Assembly: GCA_003144275.1 (NCBI GenBank)
Contig: NJBF01000060.1
Span: 1 to 15,065 of the forward strand
Length of the DNA stretch: 15,065 nucleotides
Direction of reading: 5' to 3'
Source: Candidatus Heimdallarchaeota archaeon B3_Heim
GTDB taxonomy: Archaea; Asgardarchaeota; Heimdallarchaeia; Hodarchaeales; Hodarchaeaceae
Part shown: one piece after another, positions 1 to 14,888 of the stretch
Layout of the letters: the number at the start of each line of letters is the position of its first letter
Position numbering within the stretch: the first letter of the stretch is position 1
The notes under the pieces: generated by a model
What the model saw: the letters and a program-made list of their open reading frames with translations, nothing else
Database searches by the model: none
Told to the model about the DNA's origin: nothing
Position numbers and translations under genes: made by a program

Positions 1-116
1 ATTTATCGGTTAGCGCGTGGCTGCCTGGCAGTACCCTTCTGGATAACCCGTACACTAGAGGCCCCCATACCCTGTTCCTCTCGTACTGAGGGCACGTTCC
101 TCTCACGAATCCAACA
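1..116 (-). repeat. 23S-rRNA-derived repeat, copy R0 (long type, cut by window edge)
   Basis: Nearly identical to 3715-3825 and 12620-12734. Reverse complement reads TGTTGGATTCGTGAGAGGAACGTGCCCTCAGTACGAGAGGAACAGGG; the sarcin-ricin loop is at 74-87. Confidence 0.92.
1..116 (-). rRNA. Partial 23S rRNA fragment (H94-H96, sarcin-ricin loop); not a full gene
   Basis: AGTACGAGAGGAAC followed by CTAGTGTACGGGTT...CTGCCAGGCAGC matches the LSU rRNA domain VI pattern. Protein genes lie directly upstream instead of domain V. Confidence 0.75.
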
Positions 117-1919: not shown

Positions 1920-1925
1920 TAAAGC

Positions 1926-2098
1926 AAGACCACCAGACAGAAGAGCAGAATTTGTTTATACAACAACACAGATACGCTAGTAGACGCCTGAAGGCTATTT
2001 TCAAGAAAAAACGAGAGGACTGAAAATTTTTACATTAATCTAAGAAGATTAACCCGTGTGCGAGGAGTGGGAGGGTGTAACAAATACTGAACATGTCG
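1926..2098 (-). repeat. Repeat copy R1a (trailer plus extreme 23S 3' end)
   Basis: CCTGAAGGCT at 1987, ACGAGAGGACTG at 2011, CCCGTGTGCGA at 2053, CTGAACATGTCG ending at 2098. Upstream AAGACCA...CAGAATTT...ACAACACA..CGCTA is shared with R2. Confidence 0.9.
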
Positions 2099-2458: not shown

Positions 2459-2746
2459 ATGACAGAGAAAGTTTCATTCTATGCAGACGAGAAAGCATGG
2501 GAAAGATTTAAAGATCAAGTTTATCGGTCTAGCGGAACCACACGAGCACTCAGTACTGAACTAAATAAACTTATTGAGGATAAAACATTAATTAAACTGG
2601 AAACACAATTAAAGGGATTAATACCAACCGAAGAGAAGTCCTCTTTCACTCTAGAAGAGATAAAAAAAGAAAGACCTACTCCTCCGGAAAAAGCAGAAAA
2701 CTTAATTCGCAAAATGAGGTCTGGGAATGCAGGTATATCTGGATAG
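2459..2746 (+). CDS. vapB: Putative antitoxin (RHH-like N-terminus)
   Basis: 95 aa, KVSFYADEKAWERFK strand-helix start, overlaps the downstream PIN gene by 20 bp. Confidence 0.7.
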   Translation: MTEKVSFYADEKAWERFKDQVYRSSGTTRALSTELNKLIEDKTLIKLETQLKGLIPTEEKSSFTLEEIKKERPTPPEKAENLIRKMRSGNAGISG

Positions 2747-3212
2747 TTCCATGATTGTTAAACGCTATATACAAGAGGAAGGAACCTCCTTTGCTGATTT
2801 CATTTATGAACAAGCAAATCAAGGGTACTTAACTATAACCTACAACCTTTTGAACATAGGAGAAGTATTGGGAGTATTCGACCAGTACTTAAACCGAAAA
2901 TGGATAACGAAAGACTCATTTGATGTACTTATAGCAAAATTTATTGATGAAATGCTACGACTTTTGCGCTTAGACAGGTTAATTATCATTCCAACCCATA
3001 GCACTCTCCAAATGGAGGCCTGGCCATTCATCTTAGAAAATCGCTTGTATATTGCTGATGCACTTCAATTAACAAGTGCATTGTATGTTAATACCCGATT
3101 ATTTGTCTCAGGGGATAAGGAATTAAACACAGTGGCACAGAAAAGCAATTTAGAGATATATCTCCCTACAAAGGAGAAAGAGATTATCCAAATGATAAGA
3201 AAACAAAGATAA
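2727..3212 (+). CDS. vapC: PIN-domain VapC toxin
   Basis: VYLDSSMIVKRY, NIGEVLGV, LYIADALQLTSA and FVSGDKEL PIN motifs. Confidence 0.9.
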   Translation: MQVYLDSSMIVKRYIQEEGTSFADFIYEQANQGYLTITYNLLNIGEVLGVFDQYLNRKWITKDSFDVLIAKFIDEMLRLLRLDRLIIIPTHSTLQMEAWPFILENRLYIADALQLTSALYVNTRLFVSGDKELNTVAQKSNLEIYLPTKEKEIIQMIRKQR

Positions 3213-3365
3213 GCCAGTAATAATGGTCGCCAACAATCTATTTTTCCTGAAGTGCCGTGAAACAGGAGGTACTCATTCTTGGACATTACAGGAGTTATCT
3301 TTAGACGAAACCGTCTTATCTAGAGAGATACATGAGAAAACTGCTCTTTCTAACAAAAATTAAGG

Positions 3366-3825
3366 AAGACCACAGGACATGAGATCAGAATTTTCTCAAG
3401 AAAACAACACATATCCGCTAATTGAATCCTGAAGGCTGTTTTTCTAAAAAAACGAGAGGACTGAAAATTTCCACATTTCTTCTAAGAAAGAGCCCGTGTG
3501 CGATTAGTAGCAGCTGACTGAACATGTCGATCGAAACCTCCACGCGTATTTCCAGTAGAAAATTGCTCTATCAACGGGATGTTCTATCCTAGCACTCGTT
3601 TACCGTTTCATGGTTATCATCGCCAATCCCCATGGCTTAACGCTGATGACAAAATGGATTCGTCTTTTCGAGGTCCGTTTCGTGCTTTTTCTTAAAGAAA
3701 GCATTCAGCACTTATCTATTAGCGCGTGGCTGCTGGGCAGTACCCTTCCTGATTGCCCGTACACTAGAGGCGCCCATACCCTGTTCCTCTCGTACTAAGG
3801 GCACGTTCCTCTCACGAATCCAACA
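3366..3825 (-). repeat. Repeat copy R2 (full length: 23S domain VI plus trailer)
   Basis: CCTGAAGGCT at 3428, ACGAGAGGACTG at 3452, rRNA-homologous part about 3490-3825, sarcin-ricin loop at 3783-3796. Confidence 0.95.
3490..3825 (-). rRNA. Partial 23S rRNA domain VI pseudo-copy (disrupted in H97)
   Basis: Reverse complement contains the SRL, GATAAGTGCTGAATGC, GTTGATAGAGC and GCTACTAATCGC as in LSU 3' ends. The conserved GCATCTAAG is replaced by a palindrome at 3688-3700. Confidence 0.75.
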
Positions 3826-3930: not shown

Positions 3931-4611
3931 TTAGTTAAAGATGGAGTATAATTTTACCCCATCCATTAAGATTAAAATTCCTAAAACGAGTAAAATAATA
4001 GCTAATCCTCTTTGTATCCAAAAGCTATATTTCATCCATCTTGCTAAGGTTGCTGATTTCACTTCAGTCCCTAATGCTCCTAAGACAATAAAAGGCAAGC
4101 CAAGACCAAAAGAATAAAGACAAAGAAGTATATATCCATAGACGAATTCACCTTGAATGGAGATCATCGTAAGAATAACTGAAATCATGGGTGTCATGCA
4201 AGGTATCCATGCCAAACCTGATATAAGTCCAAAAATACCGAACCCGATAATATTAAAGTTCTCAAAAACGCTCTTCAAAATCTCGGACTTGTTAAACTTT
4301 GATGTTCCAAAATCGAATCCAATTAATAGACCAAGAGCGAGTATGACAATTATAAACCCAGCAGAAATCCGAAATATGGGAAGAGAGAGGATTGTTTCAG
4401 GGAAAAGGGAAAGAATGAAATTATAACTCGAAAAAGTCAGGGTTAATCCTAAGGTATACAATACACCAGCCAAAACCCCTTTTCTTCGATCGATATTGTC
4501 GTTTGCTAATAGATACGAAATAAATATTGGGATTATAGCAAGGTGACACGGGCCTAGAAATGAAACAGCTCCCAGAGCGAAGGCGACGGGAATTAAAACT
4601 AGGTCGACCAT
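3931..4611 (-). CDS. ccdA: CcdA/DsbD-type transmembrane thiol-redox protein
   Basis: About six TM helices with SFLGPCHLAIIP and WIPCMTPMIS Cys-Pro motifs and YSFGLGLPF. Confidence 0.88.
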   Translation of the reverse strand: MVDLVLIPVAFALGAVSFLGPCHLAIIPIFISYLLANDNIDRRKGVLAGVLYTLGLTLTFSSYNFILSLFPETILSLPIFRISAGFIIVILALGLLIGFDFGTSKFNKSEILKSVFENFNIIGFGIFGLISGLAWIPCMTPMISVILTMISIQGEFVYGYILLCLYSFGLGLPFIVLGALGTEVKSATLARWMKYSFWIQRGLAIILLVLGILILMDGVKLYSIFN

Positions 4612-4613
4612 GG

Positions 4614-4931
4614 TTATTCTCTCTCTTTCATAATTATCTCAGGAGAAAGATTTAGAACCAACTTCTTTCTCAAAAATCCACCTAGCTTGATCTTAAATTC
4701 ATTAAGGTCTCTGTAAATGTCCAAAACTTCATTCTCAATTATGATCGGAATCTTGTGAATTTTCTCTAATGTGACGTTTTCTTGGTTTTGAAAATCATCC
4801 AGTTGAGAAAGGGGAATTATATTGATTTCCGGTTCCACAACAAAGCTACAACAACTCTCCGTTTTTTTAAGACGAATTAACATTCCATGGTTAGAGGGAA
4901 TTTTCTCTATCACTTTTTGATCTATTTCCAT
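4614..4931 (-). CDS. Small CC-motif protein (possibly HesB/IscA-like fold), function unknown
   Basis: 105 aa with ESCCSF, 2 bp from ccdA, same operon. Confidence 0.55.
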   Translation of the reverse strand: MEIDQKVIEKIPSNHGMLIRLKKTESCCSFVVEPEINIIPLSQLDDFQNQENVTLEKIHKIPIIIENEVLDIYRDLNEFKIKLGGFLRKKLVLNLSPEIIMKERE

Positions 4932-4955
4932 AGTCTGATCACGTGAATTTATGTC

Positions 4956-5660
4956 TCAGCTATTTTTCCGTTTGAGAATAATAAGAAAAATACAGATTAT
5001 ACTCCCCGTTAATCCCCAGGATAAATCTGTAGATTGAATAGATGTCGAAGGCGTCAATTGAGTCATGAGTTCTCCAGTATAATTGTCATTAGAATTTATT
5101 ATCAGCTTAAAGGAAAGAGCAATCCCCTCATAGTTAAAGATAATTTCGGAGTTATATGCTCCATTGCTATGGGTAAGTACGAAAGTGTCATTAGTCTCAG
5201 ATACGAGTGTAAAGTTCTTCCACCCCCAATCTTGTAATTGATACACAAGTGGTTTATAGGCATTACAACAGGCTCTAAAGACGTATTTAGGGATGATAAG
5301 TGGAGGAATTAATGAGAAAGGTGGTTCTTCATTCGCATATAGAATTGTACAATCCATATTACCATAGTACCCGTTATCTACTGCATCTGGTAATTTACCA
5401 ATAATAGCAATTATAACACTGCTTACTTCAAAGGAGAGAAATTCATCTCCATTTACACTAGTAATCTGGTAGCTAAGATTATCACCTTTCCTAAGATGAG
5501 GACTCCATTCTACTGGATAGGCCCCATTCGGAAAAGTGGTTTCACCTAAAGCTAGAGTATCTGGTGCCATTAGTGAGAATAATTGGAGCAGAATAATAAA
5601 CGCAAAAAGAAGAGAAAAATCTGTCCAGAAAATCTTCTTAACGGTATTTTCCTTCACCAA
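4956..5660 (-). CDS. Secreted/cell-surface protein with C-terminal membrane anchor
   Basis: N-terminal hydrophobic signal, Ser/Thr linker, C-terminal TM plus KRKNS tail, internal CC. Confidence 0.7.
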   Translation of the reverse strand: MVKENTVKKIFWTDFSLLFAFIILLQLFSLMAPDTLALGETTFPNGAYPVEWSPHLRKGDNLSYQITSVNGDEFLSFEVSSVIIAIIGKLPDAVDNGYYGNMDCTILYANEEPPFSLIPPLIIPKYVFRACCNAYKPLVYQLQDWGWKNFTLVSETNDTFVLTHSNGAYNSEIIFNYEGIALSFKLIINSNDNYTGELMTQLTPSTSIQSTDLSWGLTGSIICIFLIILKRKNS

Positions 5661-5739
5661 TCTTTTCCACCATTGATTATTTGTTTAAACAAAGATGAAA
5701 ACCCATGTTTTGAGGAGCTATATTAATACTTTGATATAT

Positions 5740-5753
5740 GTCGATGTATCGAC
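5740..5753. promoter_or_regulatory. Palindromic operator, second copy of the putative ArsR site
   Basis: GTCGAT-GT-ATCGAC. 5741-5752 is the exact reverse complement of TCGATACATCGA at 7900-7911. Confidence 0.55.
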
Positions 5754-5863
5754 CTTTCCGCATTCAAACAGAAAGGAAAATTGATAAATCTGGACGAGGC
5801 AAGATGGGTTAATACCCATTTGACAATGAACTTTTCTGGGTCTTTATATGAAAGATGTCTGAA

Positions 5864-6133
5864 TTATAATACATCACCAATTGGTAATGTTTTTCCAAGG
5901 AGCTTAAGGAGAGTTTGTTCTAGTAAGAAAACTGGGATGGATTCTCCATTGATCACAACCGTTTGGCCTCCAACACCAAGTTTGTGAGCACGGGAAGAAT
6001 CTGAGGTTAAGCTTTCTATTTCCAAGTAGTCTTTATACTTCATTAGGATATCCCACACATTGTCAATCCATGTTGCAAATGAACAACCGCATACTCCTAC
6101 TGGGGAAAACACCTCGACTTTGGGCTTCTTCAT
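5864..6133 (-). CDS. Small thioredoxin-fold protein (CxC motif)
   Basis: KVEVFSPVGVCGCSF...TVVINGE pattern, adjacent to a second thioredoxin-fold gene. Confidence 0.65.
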   Translation of the reverse strand: MKKPKVEVFSPVGVCGCSFATWIDNVWDILMKYKDYLEIESLTSDSSRAHKLGVGGQTVVINGESIPVFLLEQTLLKLLGKTLPIGDVL

Positions 6134-6150
6134 TTTGAGTTCACTAATAT

Positions 6151-6399
6151 CTATTCAGATTCTTGAAGCAATGCTACAAGCTTGTTTACTGGGAGATAGC
6201 GTCCAGAAAGAACAACTTTTCCATCCACAGCTAAAGCCGGAGTAGCGGAAATTCCCCTTTGGATCACATCCGCCATATCAGTGTTATAAAGAATTTTTAC
6301 GTGTGTCCAACCTAGCTTTTCTACTGCTTCTTCGGCGCTCTTTTTTAATGCTTTACATTTAGCACATCCAGGTCCGAAGACTTCTATTTCCTTTATCAT
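6151..6399 (-). CDS. MTH895/ArsE-type redox-active disulfide protein (thioredoxin family)
   Basis: IEVFGPGCAKC CxxC motif and GISATPALAVDGKVVLSGR; typical neighbour of DUF318 permeases. Confidence 0.88.
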   Translation of the reverse strand: MIKEIEVFGPGCAKCKALKKSAEEAVEKLGWTHVKILYNTDMADVIQRGISATPALAVDGKVVLSGRYLPVNKLVALLQESE

Positions 6400-6450
6400 A
6401 TTTATTTACACCTTCAAAATTTTCAATGTATAGTCTAATTGTTTCTACTC

Positions 6451-7866
6451 TTACCAAAGGCCAATTCCTTGGCCGAGAACGAATCCAAAAAGCAAGCCTG
6501 AAAATGTTGTGAAAAAAGTCACTAGGATCACATAAAATGAGTTTCGTCTATCCCCTAAATACTTCCGGGTAACAAGAATACTTTGTATGGATAATTCAGG
6601 ATCAGCTAATAAATACGCTAATAGCGGTCCACGAGCCATTCCAAGATCTAAGAAAATTCGGGCAATAGGGACTTCCATTAAGGTCGGAAAGTACATAAAT
6701 ACTCCAAATAACACTCCAATAAGATTTGCCAGGATTGTATTACTACCCACTAATTCTACAATAATTTCAGGGGGGATAAAATACTTAACAAATCCAGCAA
6801 TCACAACTCCAGAAATAATTAAGGGAAAAATTGATTTGACAAATATCCATGTTTCCAGTAACCAGGCATTTACATCATCTGCCTCAAACATCTTCCAGAT
6901 GAACAGGAGTAACCCCACGACCACTATTCCTGTTAAAACAACTTTGAGTAACATATTACTGATAGCTGGTGTGAGAAGAATTCCAAAGACGGTAAGGTCC
7001 TTTGTAAAATAAGTGATTTGAGAAGTTCCAGTCATTAACACATAAACTAACCATAAAAAAAGTCTTAATTCTTTACTGGAAAGCCTATAAGTTGTTAGAC
7101 CGAGTATGAGTAATCCGAGTACATAATTGAGGGTTTGAAGGATCGCAGGCGTTTGGAATAAAAATTCTATCATGGGTACCCCCACAAAGAATGTTCTACC
7201 AATCATCTCAACCATATTAGAATCCAACGTAGCTAAAAGTAATGAACAGATTCCCAAGCCAAAAATTAACACCACATTTAGTTTAGTGGTAGACTTTGTT
7301 GACTGACCATTAATGGCTGAATCTTGCGTCTTTGAAGGAGTATTTAAGTTCTCAGGATTATAGTGATGAGAATTGGTTAGATCTATCTCCTTTCCAAAGA
7401 CTTTAGCCATTATTAACCCAATTAAAAAAGCAAAAACAATAGCTAAAATACCTCTGGCTAGAGCAATATCCATTCCAACCAATGTACCTGTGTAAGTTAA
7501 TGCGAGAATATTAATAGCTGGAGCTACAAATAGAAATGTTATCGCTGGACCTAATCCTGCTCCCCGCTTCCAAATCCCCACAAATAGAGGTAATACTGTG
7601 CAACTACAGACTGCTAAAAGGAATCCTCCAGCTGTTGCCATTGGATATGCAATTTTAGGATCTGCATCTTTCCCCATGTAACGCGTAACGAGCTCTTTCG
7701 GGATGAAATAGGTCATGGCTCCTGCAATAAAAAACGCAGGGACAAGACATAACAACACATGTAAAGAGAGGTAATCTAGCAGTGTGGTAAGTGCACTTTC
7801 TAGTGCTCCTTGAAACATTTGGAATACATCGGACATTGAGTAGACCTTCGTAACAAAATTTTCCAC
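6451..7866 (-). CDS. arsP: DUF318/ArsP-family permease
   Basis: LCLVPAFFIAG, AVCSCTVLP, AITFLFVAPAINI, MYFPTLMEVPI and GPLLAYLLADPELS motifs; multi-TM. Confidence 0.85.
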   Translation of the reverse strand: MENFVTKVYSMSDVFQMFQGALESALTTLLDYLSLHVLLCLVPAFFIAGAMTYFIPKELVTRYMGKDADPKIAYPMATAGGFLLAVCSCTVLPLFVGIWKRGAGLGPAITFLFVAPAINILALTYTGTLVGMDIALARGILAIVFAFLIGLIMAKVFGKEIDLTNSHHYNPENLNTPSKTQDSAINGQSTKSTTKLNVVLIFGLGICSLLLATLDSNMVEMIGRTFFVGVPMIEFLFQTPAILQTLNYVLGLLILGLTTYRLSSKELRLFLWLVYVLMTGTSQITYFTKDLTVFGILLTPAISNMLLKVVLTGIVVVGLLLFIWKMFEADDVNAWLLETWIFVKSIFPLIISGVVIAGFVKYFIPPEIIVELVGSNTILANLIGVLFGVFMYFPTLMEVPIARIFLDLGMARGPLLAYLLADPELSIQSILVTRKYLGDRRNSFYVILVTFFTTFSGLLFGFVLGQGIGLW

Positions 7867-7870
7867 TTAT

Positions 7871-7914
7871 ATATCGAAAACTATCGATATATAAACATAT
7901 CGATACATCGAAAT
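7871..7914. promoter_or_regulatory. Putative ArsR operator pair overlapping the TATA box of the permease operon
   Basis: ATATCGA-AAACTA-TCGATAT (7871-7890) and ATATCGA-TACA-TCGAAAT (7897-7914). The minus-strand TTTATATA at 7888-7895 is 22-29 bp from the start codon. Confidence 0.65.
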
Positions 7915-8045
7915 ATTTTTTAAGAAGACCTTCGACACTGTCTAAATAAGCGTCTTCTAGGCTTTTATGGCGCAAATTTACAAGAGAATAAAGGGAAATT
8001 TCCTTTTTTCAGGTACGTACTATTATCAGAATCAGTTCAGGATTT

Positions 8046-8438
8046 ATGGATATGGAAACTCCTGTGTTAGAAGCAAGACTTAAAGATCTAATTGATGCCG
8101 AATTAGTTTCATGGAAATCTGTTTCAAAGCGATTAAACTACCTTAATCAGCTAAAAATTAAATTAACATCATTAGATGAACAAGCGGATTTCAAGGAGTT
8201 TGGAAAGATGATCAAAGCTCTGAATCATCCTATTCGGATTCAGATTCTCCTTGCTATTGATAAAGGAGTGACATGTGCCTGTGAATTGGAGTATTTAACT
8301 GAACTTGCCCAAGCGACAATCTCTCATCACTTATCTTTACTAGAAGATGCAAATCTGATAGCCCGAATTAAGGAAGGTAAACGAAACTTTTTTTCAATAA
8401 AAAACCAACAGCTTCTTGATTCTCTTATAACGTTCTAG
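8046..8438 (+). CDS. arsR: ArsR/SmtB-family transcriptional repressor
   Basis: ALNHPIRIQIL, TCACEL (CxC) and QATISHHLSLLEDANLI HTH; divergent from the permease. Confidence 0.9.
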   Translation: MDMETPVLEARLKDLIDAELVSWKSVSKRLNYLNQLKIKLTSLDEQADFKEFGKMIKALNHPIRIQILLAIDKGVTCACELEYLTELAQATISHHLSLLEDANLIARIKEGKRNFFSIKNQQLLDSLITF

Positions 8439-8475: not shown

Positions 8476-8720
8476 TGACCACTATCGCTTGCGAGGAAAT
8501 ATTAACTTTCTAAAAAACTCACGAACACACGCTATTAGACTCCTGAAGGCTTTTTTTATGAAAAAACGAGAGGACTGAAAATTTCCACACTATTCCAAGA
8601 AGAGACACCCTTGTGCGATTAGTGGGAGTGTGTATTAAACACTAAACATGTCGACGGGCCTCCACGCGTATTTCTTTAAAGAAAATTGCTCTAATAGCGG
8701 AATTTCTCTCTAGAAGAGCA
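8476..8720 (-). repeat. Repeat copy R3 (trailer plus about 110 bp of 23S 3' end)
   Basis: CCTGAAGGCT at 8542, ACGAGAGGACTG, TGTGCGATTAG, AACATGTCGA, CCTCCACGCGTA and TTGCTCTA; homology fades near 8700-8720. Confidence 0.9.
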
Positions 8721-8737: not shown

Positions 8738-9637
8738 TCATGCCTCTTTCACATAACGGTGGGTGAGATACTTAACGAAAAGGTATGGATCCTCGTTTTT
8801 ATCAGCTCGTGCAAGGGCATTGTAGTATTTCGTACGCTCCTTGTTCCTGAAGTTGTACATCGGGAATTTGTGTTTATACAGGACAAAATTCATCAGCATT
8901 CGTGACATCCGTCCATTACCATCCCAATAGGGGTGAATGCAGACAAATTTGTAATGGACGAGGGCCGCAAGCTCTACAGGATGGAGTGTTTCTTTCGCCT
9001 CGTGATACCACTGCAAAAATTCTTTCAGTAGAGGAATCAATTCAACTGGTAATGGCGGAATAAAATCACTACCTGTTATCCTGACCTGTTCGGTACGGAG
9101 CTCCCCTGCTATATCTGGTCGGGAATTCTTGAACAGAATGTGATGCCATTCAAAGATTAAATTAAAGTGCAAATCGCCTGATGTCACGACATACCGTCTC
9201 ATTTCTTCAAAGAGTGTTTGGTGACTTTTAGCTTCGAGGATGTCGTTTAATGGACGATTTGGGGCTTGGTTTTCTAGCAATAGCTGAGCTGTTTCTCGGT
9301 GTGTTAGAGTACTTCCTTCAATCCGATTTGAGTCATAGGTAAAACGGACGATGAAATCTTCATAATATTTCTCAACTGCAGTTTTAGGTGTCTTTTTAAG
9401 CATTTGCTGATGTTTCTGTTTAACTGTGCTTAGTTGTGACTTAAATTCTTCCATAAATAAGTCGTGGTGAAAATCTTCTATGATGATGTCGATGTTATCA
9501 GGAATTTCTTGTCCTAAGTACTTCGTTCGACTACTAGTACGGTGGCCGTTCCGCACGGTATGCACTAGCGCATAATATTTGCGACCATTTTGTTTAATTG
9601 TTTTTATCCGTACCATAAGTAATTTGTTACCCCACAT
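8738..9637 (-). CDS. fic: Fic/Doc-family protein with N-terminal basic domain; ATG start likely at 9616
   Basis: HPYWDGNGRMSR catalytic motif (HPFxDGNGR type) and SNRIEG inhibitory (S/T)xxxE(G/N) motif. Confidence 0.92.
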   Translation of the reverse strand: MWGNKLLMVRIKTIKQNGRKYYALVHTVRNGHRTSSRTKYLGQEIPDNIDIIIEDFHHDLFMEEFKSQLSTVKQKHQQMLKKTPKTAVEKYYEDFIVRFTYDSNRIEGSTLTHRETAQLLLENQAPNRPLNDILEAKSHQTLFEEMRRYVVTSGDLHFNLIFEWHHILFKNSRPDIAGELRTEQVRITGSDFIPPLPVELIPLLKEFLQWYHEAKETLHPVELAALVHYKFVCIHPYWDGNGRMSRMLMNFVLYKHKFPMYNFRNKERTKYYNALARADKNEDPYLFVKYLTHRYVKEA

Positions 9638-9674: not shown

Positions 9675-9745
9675 TAGATTAGGATCTAGTTTGTATTCAT
9701 GATAGGTTATGAGTGCAAGAAGTATAAAGAAGAATAACCAGACGG

Positions 9746-9828
9746 AAGACCAGAAGACGCAGGAACACACGTGTTACGACTCCTTAAGGCTATTACTTTT
9801 CAGTAAAAGAGAGGACTGACACCTTCCC
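9746..9828 (-). repeat. Repeat copy R4 (trailer only, shortest)
   Basis: AAGACCAG...AACACAC...ACGACTCCTTAAGGCTATTACT..AGTAAAAGAGAGGACTG matches the R3 and R6 trailers. Confidence 0.8.
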
Positions 9829-9847
9829 GCCCTCGAACCGTTTTTTA

Positions 9848-10681
9848 TCAATCTTTCTTTCTCGTTTCCATTCTCATGAAAAAAAACCACGACAGGATTA
9901 AAGCAATTGTAATAATTATCCCGAAGAATCTAAATGCTTCATTCACCTCCTCAATAGTTGAAATTTGCTCTTCTTGAGTCATAAACATGTGATTTGTGAT
10001 TATATAAACTCGGAAGTAAGTAGAGAACTGTAACATTTCCTCGGTGGCAAATCCCAAGTAAATTGAGCTGAAAATGAAGAAAGGAATCACAAAAAAAACG
10101 ATAATTGGGAAACCACTCCCCAGTCCACTTAAAGATCTGTGTTTCATCACTAAAGTATTACCAACCACAGTAACTATAAGGGGGACAGTTGAGACAATGA
10201 GTAAAGTAACTAGAGCAAGCAAGAATCTGTCCAATGATATTGGTAATTCTTGTTGCCAAATAAGAAATGAGATTACACATCCGATCCATGTACACAAACT
10301 TGTAAAGAGGAGGACAAGCGCTGTTGTGCTTACTTTTCCAATAAACACTTCAAACCTTTTAGTTGATGTGAATAAAAATTCAAGAGCTGACTCATTGAGA
10401 AATAATTCTTGAATGACAACAATTGATACCAGAATATTGACTACATAAGCGAATGTGACATATATTTGAAGAACATGACCAACAAACCACTCATATCCAT
10501 TAAGATGTAGGTAGATCTCTAATGAGGCGTTCTGACCGGCAAAACTGACATATAATAGGGTGGGGACAAGACAAAAACTTAGGAGAATTAAGGCGCGATT
10601 TGAGAACAAATACCGCTTTGTTTCATACTTTGCAATTATTAAGCTGTTCCTGATAATGAACCAGATTTCCCAGATGACCAC
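9848..10681 (-). CDS. ABC-2 type transporter permease
   Basis: About six TM helices and EFLFTSTKRFEVFIGK motif; adjacent to an ABC ATPase. Confidence 0.75.
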   Translation of the reverse strand: MVIWEIWFIIRNSLIIAKYETKRYLFSNRALILLSFCLVPTLLYVSFAGQNASLEIYLHLNGYEWFVGHVLQIYVTFAYVVNILVSIVVIQELFLNESALEFLFTSTKRFEVFIGKVSTTALVLLFTSLCTWIGCVISFLIWQQELPISLDRFLLALVTLLIVSTVPLIVTVVGNTLVMKHRSLSGLGSGFPIIVFFVIPFFIFSSIYLGFATEEMLQFSTYFRVYIITNHMFMTQEEQISTIEEVNEAFRFFGIIITIALILSWFFFMRMETRKKD

Positions 10682-10710
10682 TTTTGCAGGATTGTTAACT
10701 TTCGTCTTTC

Positions 10711-11361
10711 TCAGCTCTCCCTTTGAATTGGAAAATGGATTTTTCGATAATTCGTAAAATGAGCTTTCTCATGTGAAGCAGCGATTACAATGTTTCCTTT
10801 CTCAGTATAGTTGTTCAGATATTCTTCTAAATAACGCTTCATTTGATCATCCAAATTCGCATATGGTTCATCAAGGAGTAAGACTTTTGGTTCATTTAAC
10901 ACGGCAGAACATAAGCCCATCCGTCGTCGCATCCCTTCGCTATATACACTGACATCAATATGGCTCCATTTTTCAAGTCCAAATTGTTCAAGTAACCGCG
11001 TTGCTTTCTCTTTGGGGGATTTAATTCCCATAAGTCTGCCTAAATAACATAAAAAATTAAGTCCAGATATTCCAGCATGAAATTTGCATTCCTCAGGCAT
11101 AAAACCTATCATATTCAACAATGTTCTACTTCGACGCTTTGTATTGGAACCAAATACCACAATATTTCCAGAGGTAGGCATCAACAATGTTCCTATCATT
11201 CTTAAAAGAGTTGATTTTCCAGATCCATTTGGACCTAATAATAACACTAACTCTCCTTCGGAGATTGTTACCTCAAGATTATCAATTACTCGTACTTTAA
11301 GCCCTGCCCTCCATATTCTAAAACTCTTGCTTACATTTTGAACAGAGATTTCTCCAACCAA
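10711..11361 (-). CDS. ABC transporter ATP-binding protein
   Basis: Walker A GPNGSGKS, signature YSEGMRRR, Walker B LLLDEP, H-loop ASH. Confidence 0.93.
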   Translation of the reverse strand: MVGEISVQNVSKSFRIWRAGLKVRVIDNLEVTISEGELVLLLGPNGSGKSTLLRMIGTLLMPTSGNIVVFGSNTKRRSRTLLNMIGFMPEECKFHAGISGLNFLCYLGRLMGIKSPKEKATRLLEQFGLEKWSHIDVSVYSEGMRRRMGLCSAVLNEPKVLLLDEPYANLDDQMKRYLEEYLNNYTEKGNIVIAASHEKAHFTNYRKIHFPIQRES

Positions 11362-11516
11362 CTAAGTGGCACCCTTACTTCTGTGAATACAAATTATTAC
11401 TCGCGAACGAACAGCTTAATGAAGTGATTATAAGAAGTGTAAAAAGATTCCTTTTAAAAAAGGTTCATTCTAAGTGTGAAAGAGAATTTTTTAATTAAAA
11501 CTTAATCGGGAGACTA

Positions 11517-12353
11517 ATGCGAAAATTCTACTCAAAGAATTTCTTAATTGTCTTTTTTCTCTTATTATACCTCTATCCAATTCAAAGCATACATTGTACT
11601 TCCCATAATGAACCAAGACTTATCCCTTTTATCGGAATGGTTTTAAAATATAGACTGGAAGCGCATCTTGAAGTAGGATTACCTATACCAATACCAGTCA
11701 TTGCAAACTGGACAGTTGTCTGGGAACAGTATAATACATCAAACCCCGATATTTTTATATCTCAATTAACTTTAACATCGCTTTATTTGACTTTGTACGG
11801 TGGAATTGGTCAAGAATCTGGTATCATTGTAGAGAATATCACTTCTCGCCGGGTATTATGGGTTGAGATGGAAAATACGACCTTTTTAGAGAAAATGTAT
11901 TCACTATATTATGCTCCACATCGACCCAATTATTCTCCTTTTTATATTCCCACAGAAGATCTAGGTATCAACAGTAGTATTGGTATCTACAATTATTCAA
12001 TGACTGTTATTGCTAAAGATAGAATTGCAGTGAGTGAATTTGGTTATCGTGATGTGTGGATTATACATAAAAATGTGACAAGTTCAAGTGCGGTGAACCA
12101 TTTTATTAGCTTAATCTATGATGAGATTACAGGTGTTCTTGTGGGAGGCAGTCTTTACACCCATTGGTTTTGGGAGAATGGTACTGAGCATATATACAGT
12201 GTTAAAATTATTTGTCAGTCTACAAATGCATTAGCAAGGCATTTAATCATCATTAGACCCAATGAACTACTTGCTATACTAATTAGTTGTGTACCAATAA
12301 TCCCCTCTTTAATGAAAATAATGAAGTTCAAGGAAATCAGAGGTGGTCTCTAG
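11517..12353 (+). CDS. Secreted/membrane-anchored hypothetical protein
   Basis: Signal-peptide-like N-terminus, beta-rich body, C-terminal hydrophobic segment with basic tail. The stop codon abuts R5. Confidence 0.65.
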   Translation: MRKFYSKNFLIVFFLLLYLYPIQSIHCTSHNEPRLIPFIGMVLKYRLEAHLEVGLPIPIPVIANWTVVWEQYNTSNPDIFISQLTLTSLYLTLYGGIGQESGIIVENITSRRVLWVEMENTTFLEKMYSLYYAPHRPNYSPFYIPTEDLGINSSIGIYNYSMTVIAKDRIAVSEFGYRDVWIIHKNVTSSSAVNHFISLIYDEITGVLVGGSLYTHWFWENGTEHIYSVKIICQSTNALARHLIIIRPNELLAILISCVPIIPSLMKIMKFKEIRGGL

Positions 12354-12734
12354 TTTTTTTTCTAAGAAAACGAGAGGACTGACCATTTCCACATTTCTTC
12401 TAAGAAATAGTCCGTGTGCGAGGAGTGGGAGTGTGTCATAAACACTGAACATGTCGACCGAGGGCTCCACGCGTACACAACTGCTCTGTCAACGGGATGT
12501 TCTATCCCAGCACTCGTTTACCATCTCATGGTTACCGTCGCCAGTCCCCATGGCTTTGCGCTGATGGCAAAATGGATTCGTCTTTTCGAGGTTCGTTTCG
12601 TACTTAGATGCATTCAGCACTTATCGGTTAGCGCGTGGCTGCCGGGCAGTACCCTTCCGGATAACCCGTACACTAGAGGCGCCCATACCCTGTTCCTCTC
12701 GTACTAAGGGCACGTTCCTCTCATGAATCCGACA
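12354..12734 (-). repeat. Repeat copy R5 (full 23S domain VI plus trailer lacking the CCTGAAGG end)
   Basis: ACGAGAGGACTG at 12370, rRNA-homologous part about 12409-12734, sarcin-ricin loop at 12692-12705. Confidence 0.95.
12409..12734 (-). rRNA. Partial 23S rRNA domain VI copy (best preserved)
   Basis: Reverse complement has the SRL, CTGCCCGGCAGC and GATAAGTGCTGAATGCATCTAAGTACGAAAC (close to canonical GATAAGTGCTGAAAGCATCTAAGCACGAAAC), then an extended H98 and H100-H101. Confidence 0.8.
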
Positions 12735-12796
12735 ACTAGAATAGAAGAAAAAGTATTGGATTTCATAACGTAATAGGCTTTAAGAGAGGATCTAGA

Positions 12797-13285
12797 TTAA
12801 ATAATTCTTGAACGTAACCTTAAGATTCGTTTAGCTTTTTGTTTGGGGATAATTTTCCACTCACGAAATAACCTGACTACCTGATAAAGCTCATTGGGAG
12901 AAATCTCTCCTTCCAGTAGCAAAAAACCAAAATAATCAGCAATATGTAGTGCTTTTAATGCGCCATTCATCGTATTTTCTAGCAACATTGGATGATCTTC
13001 TGTAATAATAGGATAACCAGAGAATTCACCATATTCCAAGAGTGAAGCATCAGCTTCATCAAAACACTGTTTAAGAAATTTGTTGAAATGTTTGTTTAAC
13101 CTCGGAAGGATTGTCACATTACGAAAAAAGACCTCTTCATCAGGAAAACGATGGAGTAACTCCTTGTGAACATCATGTGTAATCATAAATTCTTTTCGCT
13201 CCATTATTCTCGAAATTAAGTTAGAAAAACCATTATCTCGTAAAAGAAGGATGTAGAACCATGAAAGAGTATCAACTCCAAACAT
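12797..13285 (-). CDS. PIN-domain (DUF3368-like) protein; true start likely MFGVDT at 13285
   Basis: GVDTLSW, THDVHKEL, DEADASLL and IITEDH acidic PIN pattern. Confidence 0.72.
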   Translation of the reverse strand: MFGVDTLSWFYILLLRDNGFSNLISRIMERKEFMITHDVHKELLHRFPDEEVFFRNVTILPRLNKHFNKFLKQCFDEADASLLEYGEFSGYPIITEDHPMLLENTMNGALKALHIADYFGFLLLEGEISPNELYQVVRLFREWKIIPKQKAKRILRLRSRII

Positions 13286-13307
13286 GGTTTGAAAAACCAA
13301 CACAAGC

Positions 13308-13315
13308 TTTATAAA
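13308..13315. promoter_or_regulatory. Palindromic TATA box shared by two divergent, likely leaderless genes
   Basis: TTTATAAA lies 23-30 bp from both ATG 13285 (-) and ATG 13338 (+). Confidence 0.6.
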
Positions 13316-13337
13316 CATATTGGCCTGTTATCTAACC

Positions 13338-13667
13338 ATGAGTCAACTAAGTTTCAAATTTCCAGAAAAAGAACGCAGTTTTCTAAAATGGTATTCAGAG
13401 AAAACCTCCGAACCACTGGGAACAATATATCGCAAAGTAACACTGGAACACTTCATACATTGGAAAAAAACTGTCTTGATAGAGGCGTATCTCAATGGTT
13501 CAATCGGAATAAAACAATTTGCTAACTTAGGGGGAATGACATTCAATGAATGTTTCCTCTTACTTAAACAAAACAATATCGACCCTCCGTATAATGAATT
13601 GTTAGATATCCATTCAGCTCAAGTGATGGAAGAACAGCTTATACAACCAAAGAAAAACCTCAAGTGA
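13338..13667 (+). CDS. UPF0175-like antitoxin (RHH plus HTH); start likely MSQLSF at 13338
   Basis: QLSFKFPEKE strand-helix N-terminus. AYLNGSIGIKQFANLGGMTFNECFLLLKQNNI resembles the UPF0175 HTH. Confidence 0.68.
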   Translation: MSQLSFKFPEKERSFLKWYSEKTSEPLGTIYRKVTLEHFIHWKKTVLIEAYLNGSIGIKQFANLGGMTFNECFLLLKQNNIDPPYNELLDIHSAQVMEEQLIQPKKNLK

Positions 13668-13706
13668 TTACCGATATCTACCGTAAACTCAATTTCATGA
13701 TATTTT

Positions 13707-13818
13707 TACGACTCCCGGAGGCTATTACTTCTAGTAAACGAGAGGACTGCCCATTTCCACACTAATTTTTCATTAGTAGCCCGTGTGCGATTAGGGGGAG
13801 TTAAATTTCTAAGACTCC
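13707..13818 (-). repeat. Repeat copy R6 (trailer plus a few rRNA bases)
   Basis: TACGACTCCCGGAGGCTATTACT..AGTAAACGAGAGGACTGCCCATTTCCACA..GCCCGTGTGCGATTAG. Confidence 0.88.
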
Positions 13819-13853: not shown

Positions 13854-14648
13854 TTAGACAGAAACACAAGAAAATAATGTAAAATTCTTGTAGGAGGAAA
13901 AACCAAGCTTTTCGTAAAGACGGATTGCAGGAACATTATCTTGAACAACAAATAAAGTTATGAATCTTTTCGTTTTCAAAATCTCATTTCCTATAGTAGA
14001 GACCAGGTTTTTGCCTAAAGATTTGCCACGATATTCGGAAATGACCAGGACATTCCCTAAATGTGCCAACTTAGGTGTTTCAAAGTGAGTTCCTCCACAA
14101 GCAACAATTTGATCATTAATCTCCTGAAAAAAGTAGAAATTGCTCTCTAGTTGAATCGAACTCCACGGGAATGTATGATTAGCTTGATAGAATTCATCAA
14201 TACGACTTAAATCCTTAAGAGAGGCATGTATTAACGAATGATCCGAATCCAGAAAGTTTTCTCTTTTTCTATCTGTAATCATACAGATTTCAGAACTTTT
14301 TTCTTGGATACGAAAATGACTACTCAAAACCTTTTCAGTTAAAGAAGGGGAGACCAATATAAACTTTTCAGGGAGTATATGGAACAGGTGAGAAAGGATA
14401 ACGGCTTCAGTTTCTTCGGATGATTTTGGTATAACAACAGAAGAACAGTCGAATCCTTTAAAAACAGTGAAAAGGGAAATTAGGGCCTCTCTATCAAAAA
14501 CACCATAAACATCCGTAAGATCAATGCAAGGAGGGAATAAATCTCCTAGTAAAAACAAATTATCAAAATAGTCTTTTGTGGCTAGTCTAATACAGTTATT
14601 TATTAGGAATTGATTATTGCGAGGAATATGCTTAATTTTCAACTCCAT
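13854..14648 (-). CDS. GNAT-family acetyltransferase (C-terminal GNAT domain)
   Basis: LGNVLVISEYRGKSLG acetyl-CoA motif and VVQDNVPAIRLYEKLGF. Confidence 0.9.
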   Translation of the reverse strand: MELKIKHIPRNNQFLINNCIRLATKDYFDNLFLLGDLFPPCIDLTDVYGVFDREALISLFTVFKGFDCSSVVIPKSSEETEAVILSHLFHILPEKFILVSPSLTEKVLSSHFRIQEKSSEICMITDRKRENFLDSDHSLIHASLKDLSRIDEFYQANHTFPWSSIQLESNFYFFQEINDQIVACGGTHFETPKLAHLGNVLVISEYRGKSLGKNLVSTIGNEILKTKRFITLFVVQDNVPAIRLYEKLGFSSYKNFTLFSCVSV

Positions 14649-14719
14649 TGCTCCAATAAGAAAATACGTCTCTATCCTTAATAACTCATTTTGTTAATCC
14701 AGTTATTCATGGTGGATGT

Positions 14720-14888
14720 CCTGAAGGCTATTTCTGCAAAAGAAACGAGAGGACTGAAAATTTCCACAACTCTAAAAAGAAAGAGCCCGTGTGCGAGGAG
14801 TGGTAATATGTCTTAAACATTAAACTTGTCGGTTGAAATTTCTATGTATAATTCTTGAATAAGACCCCTCTCTCATCGGGATTGTTCT
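14720..14888 (-). repeat. Repeat copy R7 (trailer plus degenerate 23S 3' end)
   Basis: CCTGAAGGCT at 14720, ACGAGAGGACTGAAAATTTCCACA, GAGCCCGTGTGCGAGGAGTGG, and CTCTCTCATCGGGATTGTTCT (14868-14888), which resembles CTCTGTCAACGGGATGTTCT. Confidence 0.88.

What the first reader, a model, noticed from the sequence alone, without database searches (positions are those of the whole stretch)
3783..3825. All three long copies stop at the same rRNA position, the start of 23S domain VI
Seen: R0 (116), R2 (3825) and R5 (12734) all lose homology right after TTCCTCTCA(C/T)GAATCC(A/G)ACA, followed by unrelated flanks. Established: this is roughly E. coli 23S position 2630, the domain V/VI boundary just before H94 and the SRL. 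Inference: either a fixed recombination crossover (att core) or capture of a discretely processed, self-folding domain-VI RNA.
Basis: partly seen in the sequence, partly recalled or inferred. Interest (0 to 1): 0.75.

Follow-up and report, generated by a model that had tools for sequence, protein, structure and literature searches.

The report
Fixed joint in 23S-tail repeats
In this Asgard (Heimdall-group) archaeon, spare copies of the tail of the 23S ribosomal RNA gene separate small packets of accessory genes, and the longest copies all start at the same nucleotide of the rRNA across a dozen related species; this points to a site-specific DNA joining process that uses the rRNA gene's end as a docking site, with no recognisable integrase.

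Summary
The 20-nt motif occurs exactly three times in the window (0 expected), and each copy is the 5' edge of a minus-strand copy of 23S domain VI plus the 3' trailer. Using a real 23S from the same genus as query, 31 stand-alone copies in 12 genomes start within 18 nt of this point. None runs further 5'. There is a second peak about 20 nt before the mature 3' end.

That is inside helix 73, not at the domain boundary. Some flanks keep 8-20 degenerate nt of 23S sequence, as a hybrid att-like site would.

The copies punctuate cassette arrays that start directly behind the real 23S gene (G007:C8, G004:C44). No tyrosine recombinase lies on any array contig. The trailer part of each unit is the 3' strand of the pre-23S processing stem.

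Best reading (about 0.5): a site-specific DNA joint of an integrase-free gene-capture array anchored on the rRNA gene, with later exchange in the trailer core. Capture of a processed RNA is not supported. The enzyme is unknown.

Earlier notes of this scan report similar trailer-repeat arrays in Thor- and Lokiarchaeial genomes. I found no paper describing them.

The parts
1..116 (-). R0: 5' part of a long 23S-tail unit (domain VI start); the rest is lost at the contig end. The joint is at 116.
   Evidence: orthologous copy with the same flank in G013:C70
140..1919 (.). Cassette between R1 and R0: PIN toxin (140-544 -), antitoxin-like gene (582-824 -), prenyltransferase/cyclase-like ORF (936-1919 +).
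   Evidence: 95% identical block in G013:C70:10151-12040
1921..2098 (-). R1: unit holding the last 23S nucleotides plus the full trailer. A detached domain-VI remnant lies at 2344-2387.
2459..3212 (+). Cassette: antitoxin-like ORF plus PIN toxin.
3363..3825 (-). R2: complete long unit (domain VI, hairpin 1, core, hairpin 2, full trailer). The joint is at 3825. The conserved helix-97 loop is replaced by a small hairpin.
3931..8438 (.). Cassette: DsbD-like gene, three orphan ORFs, thioredoxin, ArsP-type permease, ArsR. Four of its genes (the 89-aa ORF, thioredoxin, ArsP, ArsR) have paralogues on contig C31.
8506..8700 (-). R3: mid-length unit (end of domain VI plus trailer).
8738..9637 (-). Cassette: Fic/DOC protein.
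9735..9832 (-). R4: short unit (core, hairpin 2 and distal trailer only).
9848..12353 (.). Cassette: ABC permease-like gene, ABC ATPase, orphan of 278 aa whose stop overlaps R5.
12344..12734 (-). R5: long unit, the best preserved (Rfam 169.5 bits), lacking the distal trailer. The joint is at 12734.
12797..13667 (.). Cassette: orphan of 173 aa plus a small antitoxin-like ORF.
13706..13800 (-). R6: short unit starting at the last 23S helix strand.
13854..14648 (-). Cassette: GNAT acetyltransferase.
14719..14850 (-). R7: mid/short unit.

Best explanation
The shared endpoint is the outer (5') edge of the longest class of '23S tail units'. A unit is a DNA copy of the last 4 nt of helix 73, the whole of domain VI, and about 150 nt of 3' trailer. 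That trailer is the 3' strand of the long pre-23S processing stem. Units lie head to tail, all in rRNA sense, directly downstream of the single real 23S gene, and they split an island into cassettes of 1-5 kb. The cargo includes toxin-antitoxin pairs, Fic, GNAT, transporters and, in relatives, many Ras-type GTPases.

Shown: the edge is a hard wall at one position in about 24 independent junctions from 12 species, with unrelated DNA beyond it.

Inferred: the wall is a site-specific DNA joint. Incoming DNA is joined to the 23S gene at about E. coli 2620/2621. A copy of everything 3' of that point remains downstream, as happens when islands integrate into the 3' ends of tRNA or tmRNA genes. The 3' limit of a unit is set by function, because the upstream copy must still provide a complete 23S end and processing stem. 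Shorter units are deletion derivatives, or products of a second joint about 20 nt before the mature 3' end.

Once an array exists, cassettes are reshuffled by exchange within the conserved trailer core (GTGGAAAT...CAGTCCTCTCG), which in cassette-borne units is flanked by two covarying hairpins.

The enzyme is not identified and would act in trans. Candidates are the host XerA-like recombinase or an unrecognised family.
For: Peak: 31 stand-alone copies in 12 genomes start at query positions 387-404 of a real 23S, where the boundary is 401. None starts further 5'. A second peak of 11 copies lies at 699-704.

Precision: in 24 independent flanks the match to real 23S is 18/24, 20/24, 20/24 and 16/24 at positions -1 to -4. 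It falls to 8/24 at -5 and to background beyond.

Hybrid-site look: several flanks keep degenerate 8-20 nt of the 23S sequence just upstream of the joint. Examples are L028, L034 and G001:C45 (L047, L075) and L082.

Independent DNA: three further fragment junctions appear in JGI metagenomes and more in Logan contigs.

Anchoring: in G007:C8 the real 23S 3' end lies at the head of an array of at least 45 kb, with two long and about 15 short units on the same strand. The same layout holds in G004:C44.

Trailer function: the trailer pairs with the 16S-23S spacer along its whole length.

Turnover: G000 and G013 share cargo at 92-100% identity, while the flanking units are only 60-80% identical. Orthology breaks inside the unit core.

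Hairpins: 90% of cells are paired, and 53 double-change cells are seen against 17 in shuffles (0 of 500 shuffles as high).
Against: No recombinase was found. PF00589 hits in six genomes all lie on other contigs. Nothing recombinase-like appeared among the 25 commonest families of 150 array ORFs, nor at array heads or tails.

The joint sequence has no dyad symmetry. It holds two direct TRTTGGA repeats, unlike classical core sites.

Flanks between the joint and the next gene are only 15-135 nt, which is short for an attP arm.

In the one clear orthologous case the joint is internal to a block inherited by two species. Joints are therefore old and stable, and recent activity at this site is not shown.

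No excised circle or free element carrying the unit was found.

Some junctions share ancestry, so the count of independent events is below 31.
Confidence: 0.5

Rival explanations
1. Founder plus homologous recombination. One ancient accidental duplication created a tail copy starting at this position. All long units descend from it and spread by homologous recombination between units and with the real 23S, as circles integrating by single crossover. The flanks differ because cargo next to the unit has been replaced piecemeal. No site-specific step exists.
For: No recombinase was found. Units share long homology, and orthology breakpoints fall in the best-conserved stretch of the unit, where homologous exchange would concentrate. 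C9:1-128 is identical to R5 including 13 nt of flank and then switches to an R2-like sequence, as a recombinant or an assembly branch would. The R0 junction is inherited unchanged in two species.
Against: Homologous recombination never makes a new unit edge. Yet about 24 unrelated flanks abut the same nucleotide within 1-2 nt. Replacing cargo by illegitimate events should erode or shift the edge in both directions, and no copy extends 5' of it. The residual GACG and the degenerate 23S-like flanks are also left unexplained.
Confidence: 0.2
2. Stand-alone functional RNA. The long units are genes for a domain-VI RNA carrying the sarcin-ricin loop, for example a decoy for ribotoxic nucleases such as PIN toxins, or a spare ribosomal part. 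Their sharp edges simply reflect selection on a self-folding domain.
For: The edge is close to the domain V/VI boundary. Most long copies keep an intact sarcin-ricin loop, with compensatory changes in its stem. R0 lies 23 nt behind a co-oriented PIN toxin gene in two species. Seven of the 150 array ORFs scanned in relatives are PIN toxins.
Against: The joint is 4 nt inside helix 73. Many copies are truncated or mutated in universally conserved loops: R2 and the C9 copy lost the helix-97 loop, and L029, L037, L054, L059 and L060 have damaged sarcin-ricin loops. Most units lack domain VI altogether. The PIN orthologue in G018 is followed by a unit without the sarcin-ricin loop. No consistent promoter lies in the flanks.
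Confidence: 0.08
3. RNA-mediated capture. A processed 3' fragment of pre-23S RNA (domain VI plus trailer) is reverse-transcribed and joined to genes. The common 3' end with variable 5' ends would then be 5' truncation.
For: All units share the 3' part and differ at the 5' end. Both 5' peaks and the 3' limit lie near RNA structural landmarks: the domain VI start, the last helix strand, and the base of the processing stem.
Against: No reverse transcriptase appeared among the array ORFs examined (not searched for specifically). The copies are strictly co-oriented and anchored behind the real gene, not dispersed. The joint has mismatched residual homology upstream. Cassette units carry two hairpin inserts that are absent from the real trailers of G004 and G007. 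A metatranscriptome rRNA contig crosses the site (weak).
Confidence: 0.07
4. Assembly or binning artefact. The rRNA-like pieces are chimeric joins at conserved k-mers in metagenome assemblies.
For: Contigs often break in rRNA. C65, C9 and others end inside units. Some MAGs in the set carry foreign 23S contigs.
Against: The same junction with the same flank occurs in two independently assembled genomes. Junctions lie deep inside contigs of 55 kb and 525 kb (G007:C8, G010:C12). Independent studies' contigs show further junctions.
Confidence: 0.02

Closest known systems
Genomic islands and integrative elements at the 3' ends of tRNA/tmRNA genes, including tandem arrays and archaeal 'gene capture' at tRNA genes
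   Same: A direct repeat that is the 3' part of a stable-RNA gene. The sharp 5' limit of the repeat equals the crossover position. The intact gene sits at the head and displaced partial copies lie downstream in the same orientation. Accretion is tandem and the cargo is accessory or defence-like.
   Different: The target is the 23S rRNA gene. The repeat is 170-480 nt instead of 20-60 nt. Modules are only 1-5 kb. No integrase gene, whole or split, is present on any array contig examined.
Integrons, including chromosomal super-integrons and those reported in Archaea (PMC9668308)
   Same: Long arrays of small cassettes separated by co-oriented repeats of about 100-170 nt. The cargo is rich in toxin-antitoxin and acetyltransferase genes. 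Cassette turnover between close relatives is rapid. Exchange seems to occur inside the repeat, so a cassette carries parts of two repeats.
   Different: No IntI was found. The repeat is derived from the rRNA trailer and is not an attC bottom-strand hairpin. The anchor is an rRNA gene rather than attI. Gene orientation is mixed: 14 genes co-oriented with the units and 6 opposite in the window.
Xer-dependent integrative elements (IMEX) and pdif modules
   Same: Modules carry no recombinase of their own. They form tandem arrays at one chromosomal site and rely on a host enzyme.
   Different: No dif-like 28-bp dyad is visible at the joint or in the core. The site lies inside an rRNA operon. A role for XerA is untested.
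rDNA-specific mobile elements of eukaryotes (R1/R2 retrotransposons, Pokey)
   Same: Site-specific use of one conserved nucleotide position of the large-subunit rRNA gene as an insertion target.
   Different: Those elements interrupt the gene and encode their own enzymes. Here the gene stays whole, the downstream part is duplicated, and no element-encoded enzyme is seen.

Membership tests
Integrase-mediated island at the 3' end of a stable-RNA gene | Tyrosine or serine integrase gene at an edge of the island | tested here: not met
   PF00589 hits in G000, G003, G007, G009, G010 and G013 all lie on contigs other than the arrays. No recombinase appears in the top families of 150 array ORFs or at array ends. 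Serine recombinases were not searched for specifically.
Integrase-mediated island at the 3' end of a stable-RNA gene | Direct repeats formed by the 3' part of the target gene, with a fixed 5' limit | tested here: met
   31 copies start within 18 nt of one position and none extends further 5'. The joint is precise to 1-2 nt in 16-20 of 24 independent flanks.
Integrase-mediated island at the 3' end of a stable-RNA gene | An intact target gene at the head of the island, with partial copies downstream on the same strand | tested here: met
   G007:C8 and G004:C44 show a real 23S running through the joint to its 3' end, followed by cassettes and units. The own genome lacks an assembled 23S.
Integron | IntI-type integrase next to attI at the array head | tested here: not met
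   The array head is the 23S gene. No PF00589 match lies on array contigs.
Integron | attC sites: imperfect palindromes that fold as one long bottom-strand hairpin | tested here: not met
   Units are rRNA and trailer sequence with two separate short hairpins around a conserved core. No attC covariance model was run.
Integron | Cassettes exchanged as units between relatives, with breakpoints inside the repeat | tested here: met
   G000 against G013 and other pairs: cargo is 92-100% identical, units are 60-80% identical, and orthology breaks in the unit core.
Naturally fragmented rRNA gene or simple rRNA pseudogene | No contiguous 23S: domain VI is encoded only as a separate piece | tested here: not met
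   Contiguous 23S across the joint is present in G004:C44, G007:C8, three JGI contigs and a metatranscriptome contig.
rDNA-targeting retroelement | Reverse transcriptase encoded in or beside the insert | not tested
   None appears among the 25 commonest Pfam families of 150 array ORFs. No dedicated reverse-transcriptase search was run.
Xer-dependent element (IMEX / pdif module) | dif-like site: two inverted arms of about 11 bp around a 6-8 bp spacer | tested here: inconclusive
   By eye the joint holds two direct TRTTGGA repeats and no dyad. The core has only a weak AT-rich palindrome that is not conserved among units. The genus's dif site is unknown.

The most novel reading that the evidence does not exclude
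Asgard archaea possess a gene-capture system of its own kind. It is anchored on the rRNA operon and has no dedicated integrase. Foreign or duplicated genes are joined at fixed positions of the 23S 3' region, and the processing-stem strand, with added hairpins, serves as the cassette recombination site. The system feeds lineage-specific expansions, including small Ras-type GTPases. The enzyme may be a host factor of rRNA or DNA metabolism, or the orphan HTH-like family of about 515 aa seen beside the joint.
Probability: 0.3. Interest if true: 0.85.

Novelty: new variant of a known kind. Interest (0 to 1): 0.66.

Why it matters
If the joint is made by a site-specific process, the 3' end of the 23S rRNA gene is a dedicated landing pad for new genes in the archaeal lineage closest to eukaryotes. 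No integrase is visible, and the repeat units are built from an rRNA processing signal. That would add a third platform beside tRNA-gene islands and integrons. It would also give a concrete target sequence, the GACG/TGTTGG joint and the GTGGAAAT...CAGTCCTCTCG core, for biochemical work on archaeal recombination. It may further help explain how Asgard genomes accumulate paralogues such as Ras-family GTPases. On the practical side, it explains why rRNA operons and these islands assemble so poorly in Heimdall-group MAGs.

Tried and rejected
1. Aloposons (PMC8813620) were read and rejected. They integrate at tRNA genes and carry giant genes.

2. A scan of viral contigs for the domain-VI start motif found nothing, so no virus or plasmid carrying a matching attP was found.

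3. A tree of the first 170 nt of domain VI was meant to show whether fragments are foreign to their host. It was too poorly resolved. G007 fragments group weakly with G007's own 23S, and the mixed types in G018 and G020 may be binning errors.

4. An age gradient along the G007 array was looked for and not seen. Identity of units to the real trailer does not fall with distance: 71% for the nearest unit and 94% for a distant one. This speaks against simple target-site duplication of host sequence at each insertion.

5. RNA evidence was not usable. Only contigs were available, so no RNA 5' ends could be read. Runs held only the rRNA-like fifth of the stretch, so no habitat or expression claim is made.

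6. An Rfam search over the class scored only two candidates per genome and is not usable as evidence of absence outside the genus. The phylum-level call failed.

7. The contig G033:C1 ends 3 nt before the joint. This is suggestive of a repeat edge in another family, but contig ends in rRNA are common, so it was not counted.

8. A family of about 515 aa next to the joint was examined as a possible insertion sequence. Terminal inverted repeats appear in one locus only, and the three copies in G000 lack them. It has no Pfam or NCBIfam match, and Atlas neighbours carry HTH domains. It remains unresolved.

9. The joint (CGTGTTGGAT) resembles the start of the trailer core (CGTGTGGAAAT) at 8 of 11 ungapped positions. 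By my own rough estimate the chance of such a match somewhere in a 150-nt trailer is about 0.2, so it is a lead only.

Full report
WHAT IS THERE

The window is a whole 15,065-nt contig (C65) of a Heimdall-group Asgard MAG with 103 contigs and 94% completeness. Rfam matches 3498-3825 and 12431-12734 on the minus strand to positions 2721-2973 of the 2987-position archaeal LSU model. This is domain VI with the sarcin-ricin loop. R0 is the same piece, cut by the contig end.

In rRNA sense, homology to 23S begins at TGTTGG, the single-stranded linker before helix 94. Counting back from the sarcin-ricin loop places this at about E. coli 2625. Beyond the three edges the flanks are unrelated and lead to different genes.

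THE UNITS

Eight co-oriented copies lie in the window. All share about 150 nt that follow the mature 23S 3' end. Only R0, R2 and R5 reach back through domain VI.

In G007, a relative where both sides of the real 23S are assembled, this trailer pairs along its whole length with the 16S-23S spacer. It is therefore the 3' strand of the long pre-23S processing stem. The unit's 3' limit (GGTGGTC...) is the base of that stem.

Cassette-borne units have this layout: last 23S helix strand, hairpin 1, core (GTGGAAAT-NNN-CAGTCCTCTCG), hairpin 2, then AGCCTTMAGGAGTC and the distal stem strand. The two hairpins vary in sequence but keep pairing. 90% of cells are paired, and 53 double-change cells are seen against 17 in shuffles, with 0 of 500 shuffles as high and far lower values for slid partners. 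The hairpins are absent from the real trailers of G004 and G007 and from two units in G013 and G018.

THE ARRAYS

The own genome has four such contigs: C9, C50, C65 and C79, with about 23 units in all. It has no assembled real 23S.

In G007:C8 the real 23S 3' end sits at the head of an array of at least 45 kb. It is recognised because it runs through the joint, and it carries a 337-nt insert near model position 2651. The array holds two long units and about 15 short ones, all on the same strand. G004:C44 shows the same layout.

Cargo in the window is two PIN-type toxin-antitoxin pairs, one more small antitoxin-like ORF, Fic, GNAT, an ArsR/ArsP/thioredoxin/DsbD cluster and an ABC exporter. Among 150 array ORFs from eight relatives the commonest families are Ras/Roc GTPases (16), beta-helix proteins (9), PIN (7) and methyltransferases.

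THE ENDPOINT TEST

I used a real 23S of the same genus as query: G004:C44, 400 nt on either side of the joint, with the boundary at query position 401. I searched all 22 genomes of the genus held.

- Stand-alone copies start at 387-404 in 31 cases from 12 genomes.
- Eleven copies start at 699-704, at the beginning of the last 23S helix strand, about 20 nt before the mature 3' end.
- Four copies start at 722-728.
- A few are scattered or cut by contig ends.
- Only real 23S genes cross the joint. Two of the crossing contigs proved to be contaminant 23S from other organisms.

Three more fragment junctions and three real genes came from JGI metagenomes. Further junctions are visible as loose ends at 12728-12734 in Logan contigs of other studies.

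ANATOMY OF THE JOINT

After collapsing flanks that are homologous to each other, 24 independent junctions remain. Their match to real 23S is as follows.

- Position -1 (G): 18 of 24.
- Position -2 (C): 20 of 24.
- Position -3 (A): 20 of 24.
- Position -4 (G): 16 of 24.
- Position -5: 8 of 24, with background values beyond.

The usual joint thus lies 4 nt further 5' than in the three window copies, whose GACG has diverged. It is inside helix 73, not at the domain edge. Several flanks retain a degenerate 8-20 nt of the upstream 23S sequence, namely L028, L034, G001:C45 (L047/L075) and L082. This is what the partner half-site of a hybrid att-like site would look like. The region holds two direct TRTTGGA repeats and no dyad.

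WHERE EXCHANGE HAPPENS NOW

G000 and G013 share five blocks of cargo at 92-100% identity, but the units on either side are only 60-80% identical. Orthology covers three parts: the distal part of the upstream unit (from AGCCTT), the cargo, and the proximal part of the downstream unit. It breaks between the two hairpins.

The R0 joint itself is internal to such a block. Present-day shuffling therefore uses the trailer core, by homologous or site-specific exchange, while the domain-VI joint is an older, stable scar of how long units were made. Deletion variants that join the first 45-50 nt of domain VI directly to the core also occur (L060; the joint 12393/12690).

ENZYME

No tyrosine recombinase lies on any array contig in six genomes. 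None lies at array heads or tails. No recombinase family appears among the commonest cargo families.

An orphan family of about 515 aa sits beside the joint in four loci, in either orientation. Its Atlas neighbours carry HTH domains and it has no Pfam or NCBIfam match. It also occurs away from arrays without the local inverted repeat. It is a lead, not a finding.

READING

Best reading (0.5): a site-specific DNA joint of an integrase-free cassette-accretion system anchored on the 23S 3' end.

- It works like islands at tRNA or tmRNA gene ends in that the part 3' of the joint is duplicated.
- It works like an integron in that small cassettes are exchanged within the repeat.
- It fails the membership tests of both, because there is no integrase, no attC and no attI.

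Rivals:

- Founder plus homologous recombination (0.2). It cannot create about 24 new edges at one nucleotide.
- A functional domain-VI RNA (0.08). Many copies are damaged, and most units lack the domain.
- RNA-mediated capture (0.07). No reverse transcriptase was seen, the copies are anchored and co-oriented, and the joint is 4 nt inside a helix.
- Artefact (0.02).

PRIOR NOTES AND LITERATURE

Earlier notes of this scan describe similar trailer-repeat arrays in Thor-, Loki- and another Asgard genome, and the array in this same window. I did not re-test those genomes. Full-text searches found no paper describing such arrays. The integron report in Archaea (PMC9668308) came up by title and abstract in a search; I did not open it, and attC/IntI as its defining elements rests on general knowledge of integrons.

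Noticed in passing
window 3424-3503, 8538-8618, 13710-13790 and others; loci L030-L042: Cassette-borne units carry two short hairpins on either side of the conserved trailer core. Their stems covary strongly. They are missing from the real 23S trailers of G004 and G007 and from two units (G013 L032:12052-12121, G018 L005:1408-1468).
   Followed up: yes
array loci of relatives (L028-L044); G007:C8: Ras/Roc-type small GTPases are the commonest cargo, at 16 of 150 array ORFs. G007 has 72 Ras matches in 5.9 Mb, and at least 4 of them lie in the 45-kb array, roughly a sevenfold excess.
   Followed up: partly
L066:394-1998, L069:232-1773, L072:9989-11539, L073:270-1811; G000 C88:122654-124153, C88:37160-38678, C54:35972-37495: An orphan family of about 515 aa lies right beside the domain-VI joint in G012 (twice), G018 and G020, in both orientations. 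It has no Pfam or NCBIfam match, and its Atlas neighbours carry HTH domains. Between G012:C386 and G020:C63 a 1.66-kb segment holding the gene is inverted. In G020 it is bounded by 17-nt inverted repeats ending in CGTC at the joint.
   Followed up: partly
L029:18937-19756 (G007:C8): The real 23S of G007 has a 337-nt insert at about model position 2651, in the peptidyl-transferase region. It looks like an rRNA intron or intervening sequence.
   Followed up: no
window 5864-8438 and G000 C31:12710-15177: The four genes of this cassette (ArsR, ArsP permease, thioredoxin and a small ORF) have paralogues at 67-84% amino-acid identity, in the same order, on another contig. Cassettes can therefore hold copies of resident gene clusters.
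   Followed up: partly
window 3680-3700 (R2) and G000 C9:130-160: In R2 and in the C9 copy the universally conserved helix-97 loop (GCAUCUAAGC) is replaced by a small hairpin (GCTTTC...GAAAGC). These copies cannot be working rRNA parts.
   Followed up: partly
G000 C9:1-128 against window 12620-12747: The start of contig C9 is identical to R5 including 13 nt of its flank, then switches to an R2-like sequence. This is either a recombinant unit in part of the population or an assembly-graph branch.
   Followed up: partly
L063 (G033:C1 end): In a genome of another family the contig carrying the 23S ends 3 nt before the joint. This could mark the same repeat edge outside the genus, or be an ordinary rRNA assembly break.
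   Followed up: partly
L061 (G001:C57), L062 (G005:C310): Two MAGs of the genus contain 23S contigs of other organisms. One is bacterial and is followed by a 5S gene. This is bin contamination to keep in mind when counting rRNA copies.
   Followed up: partly
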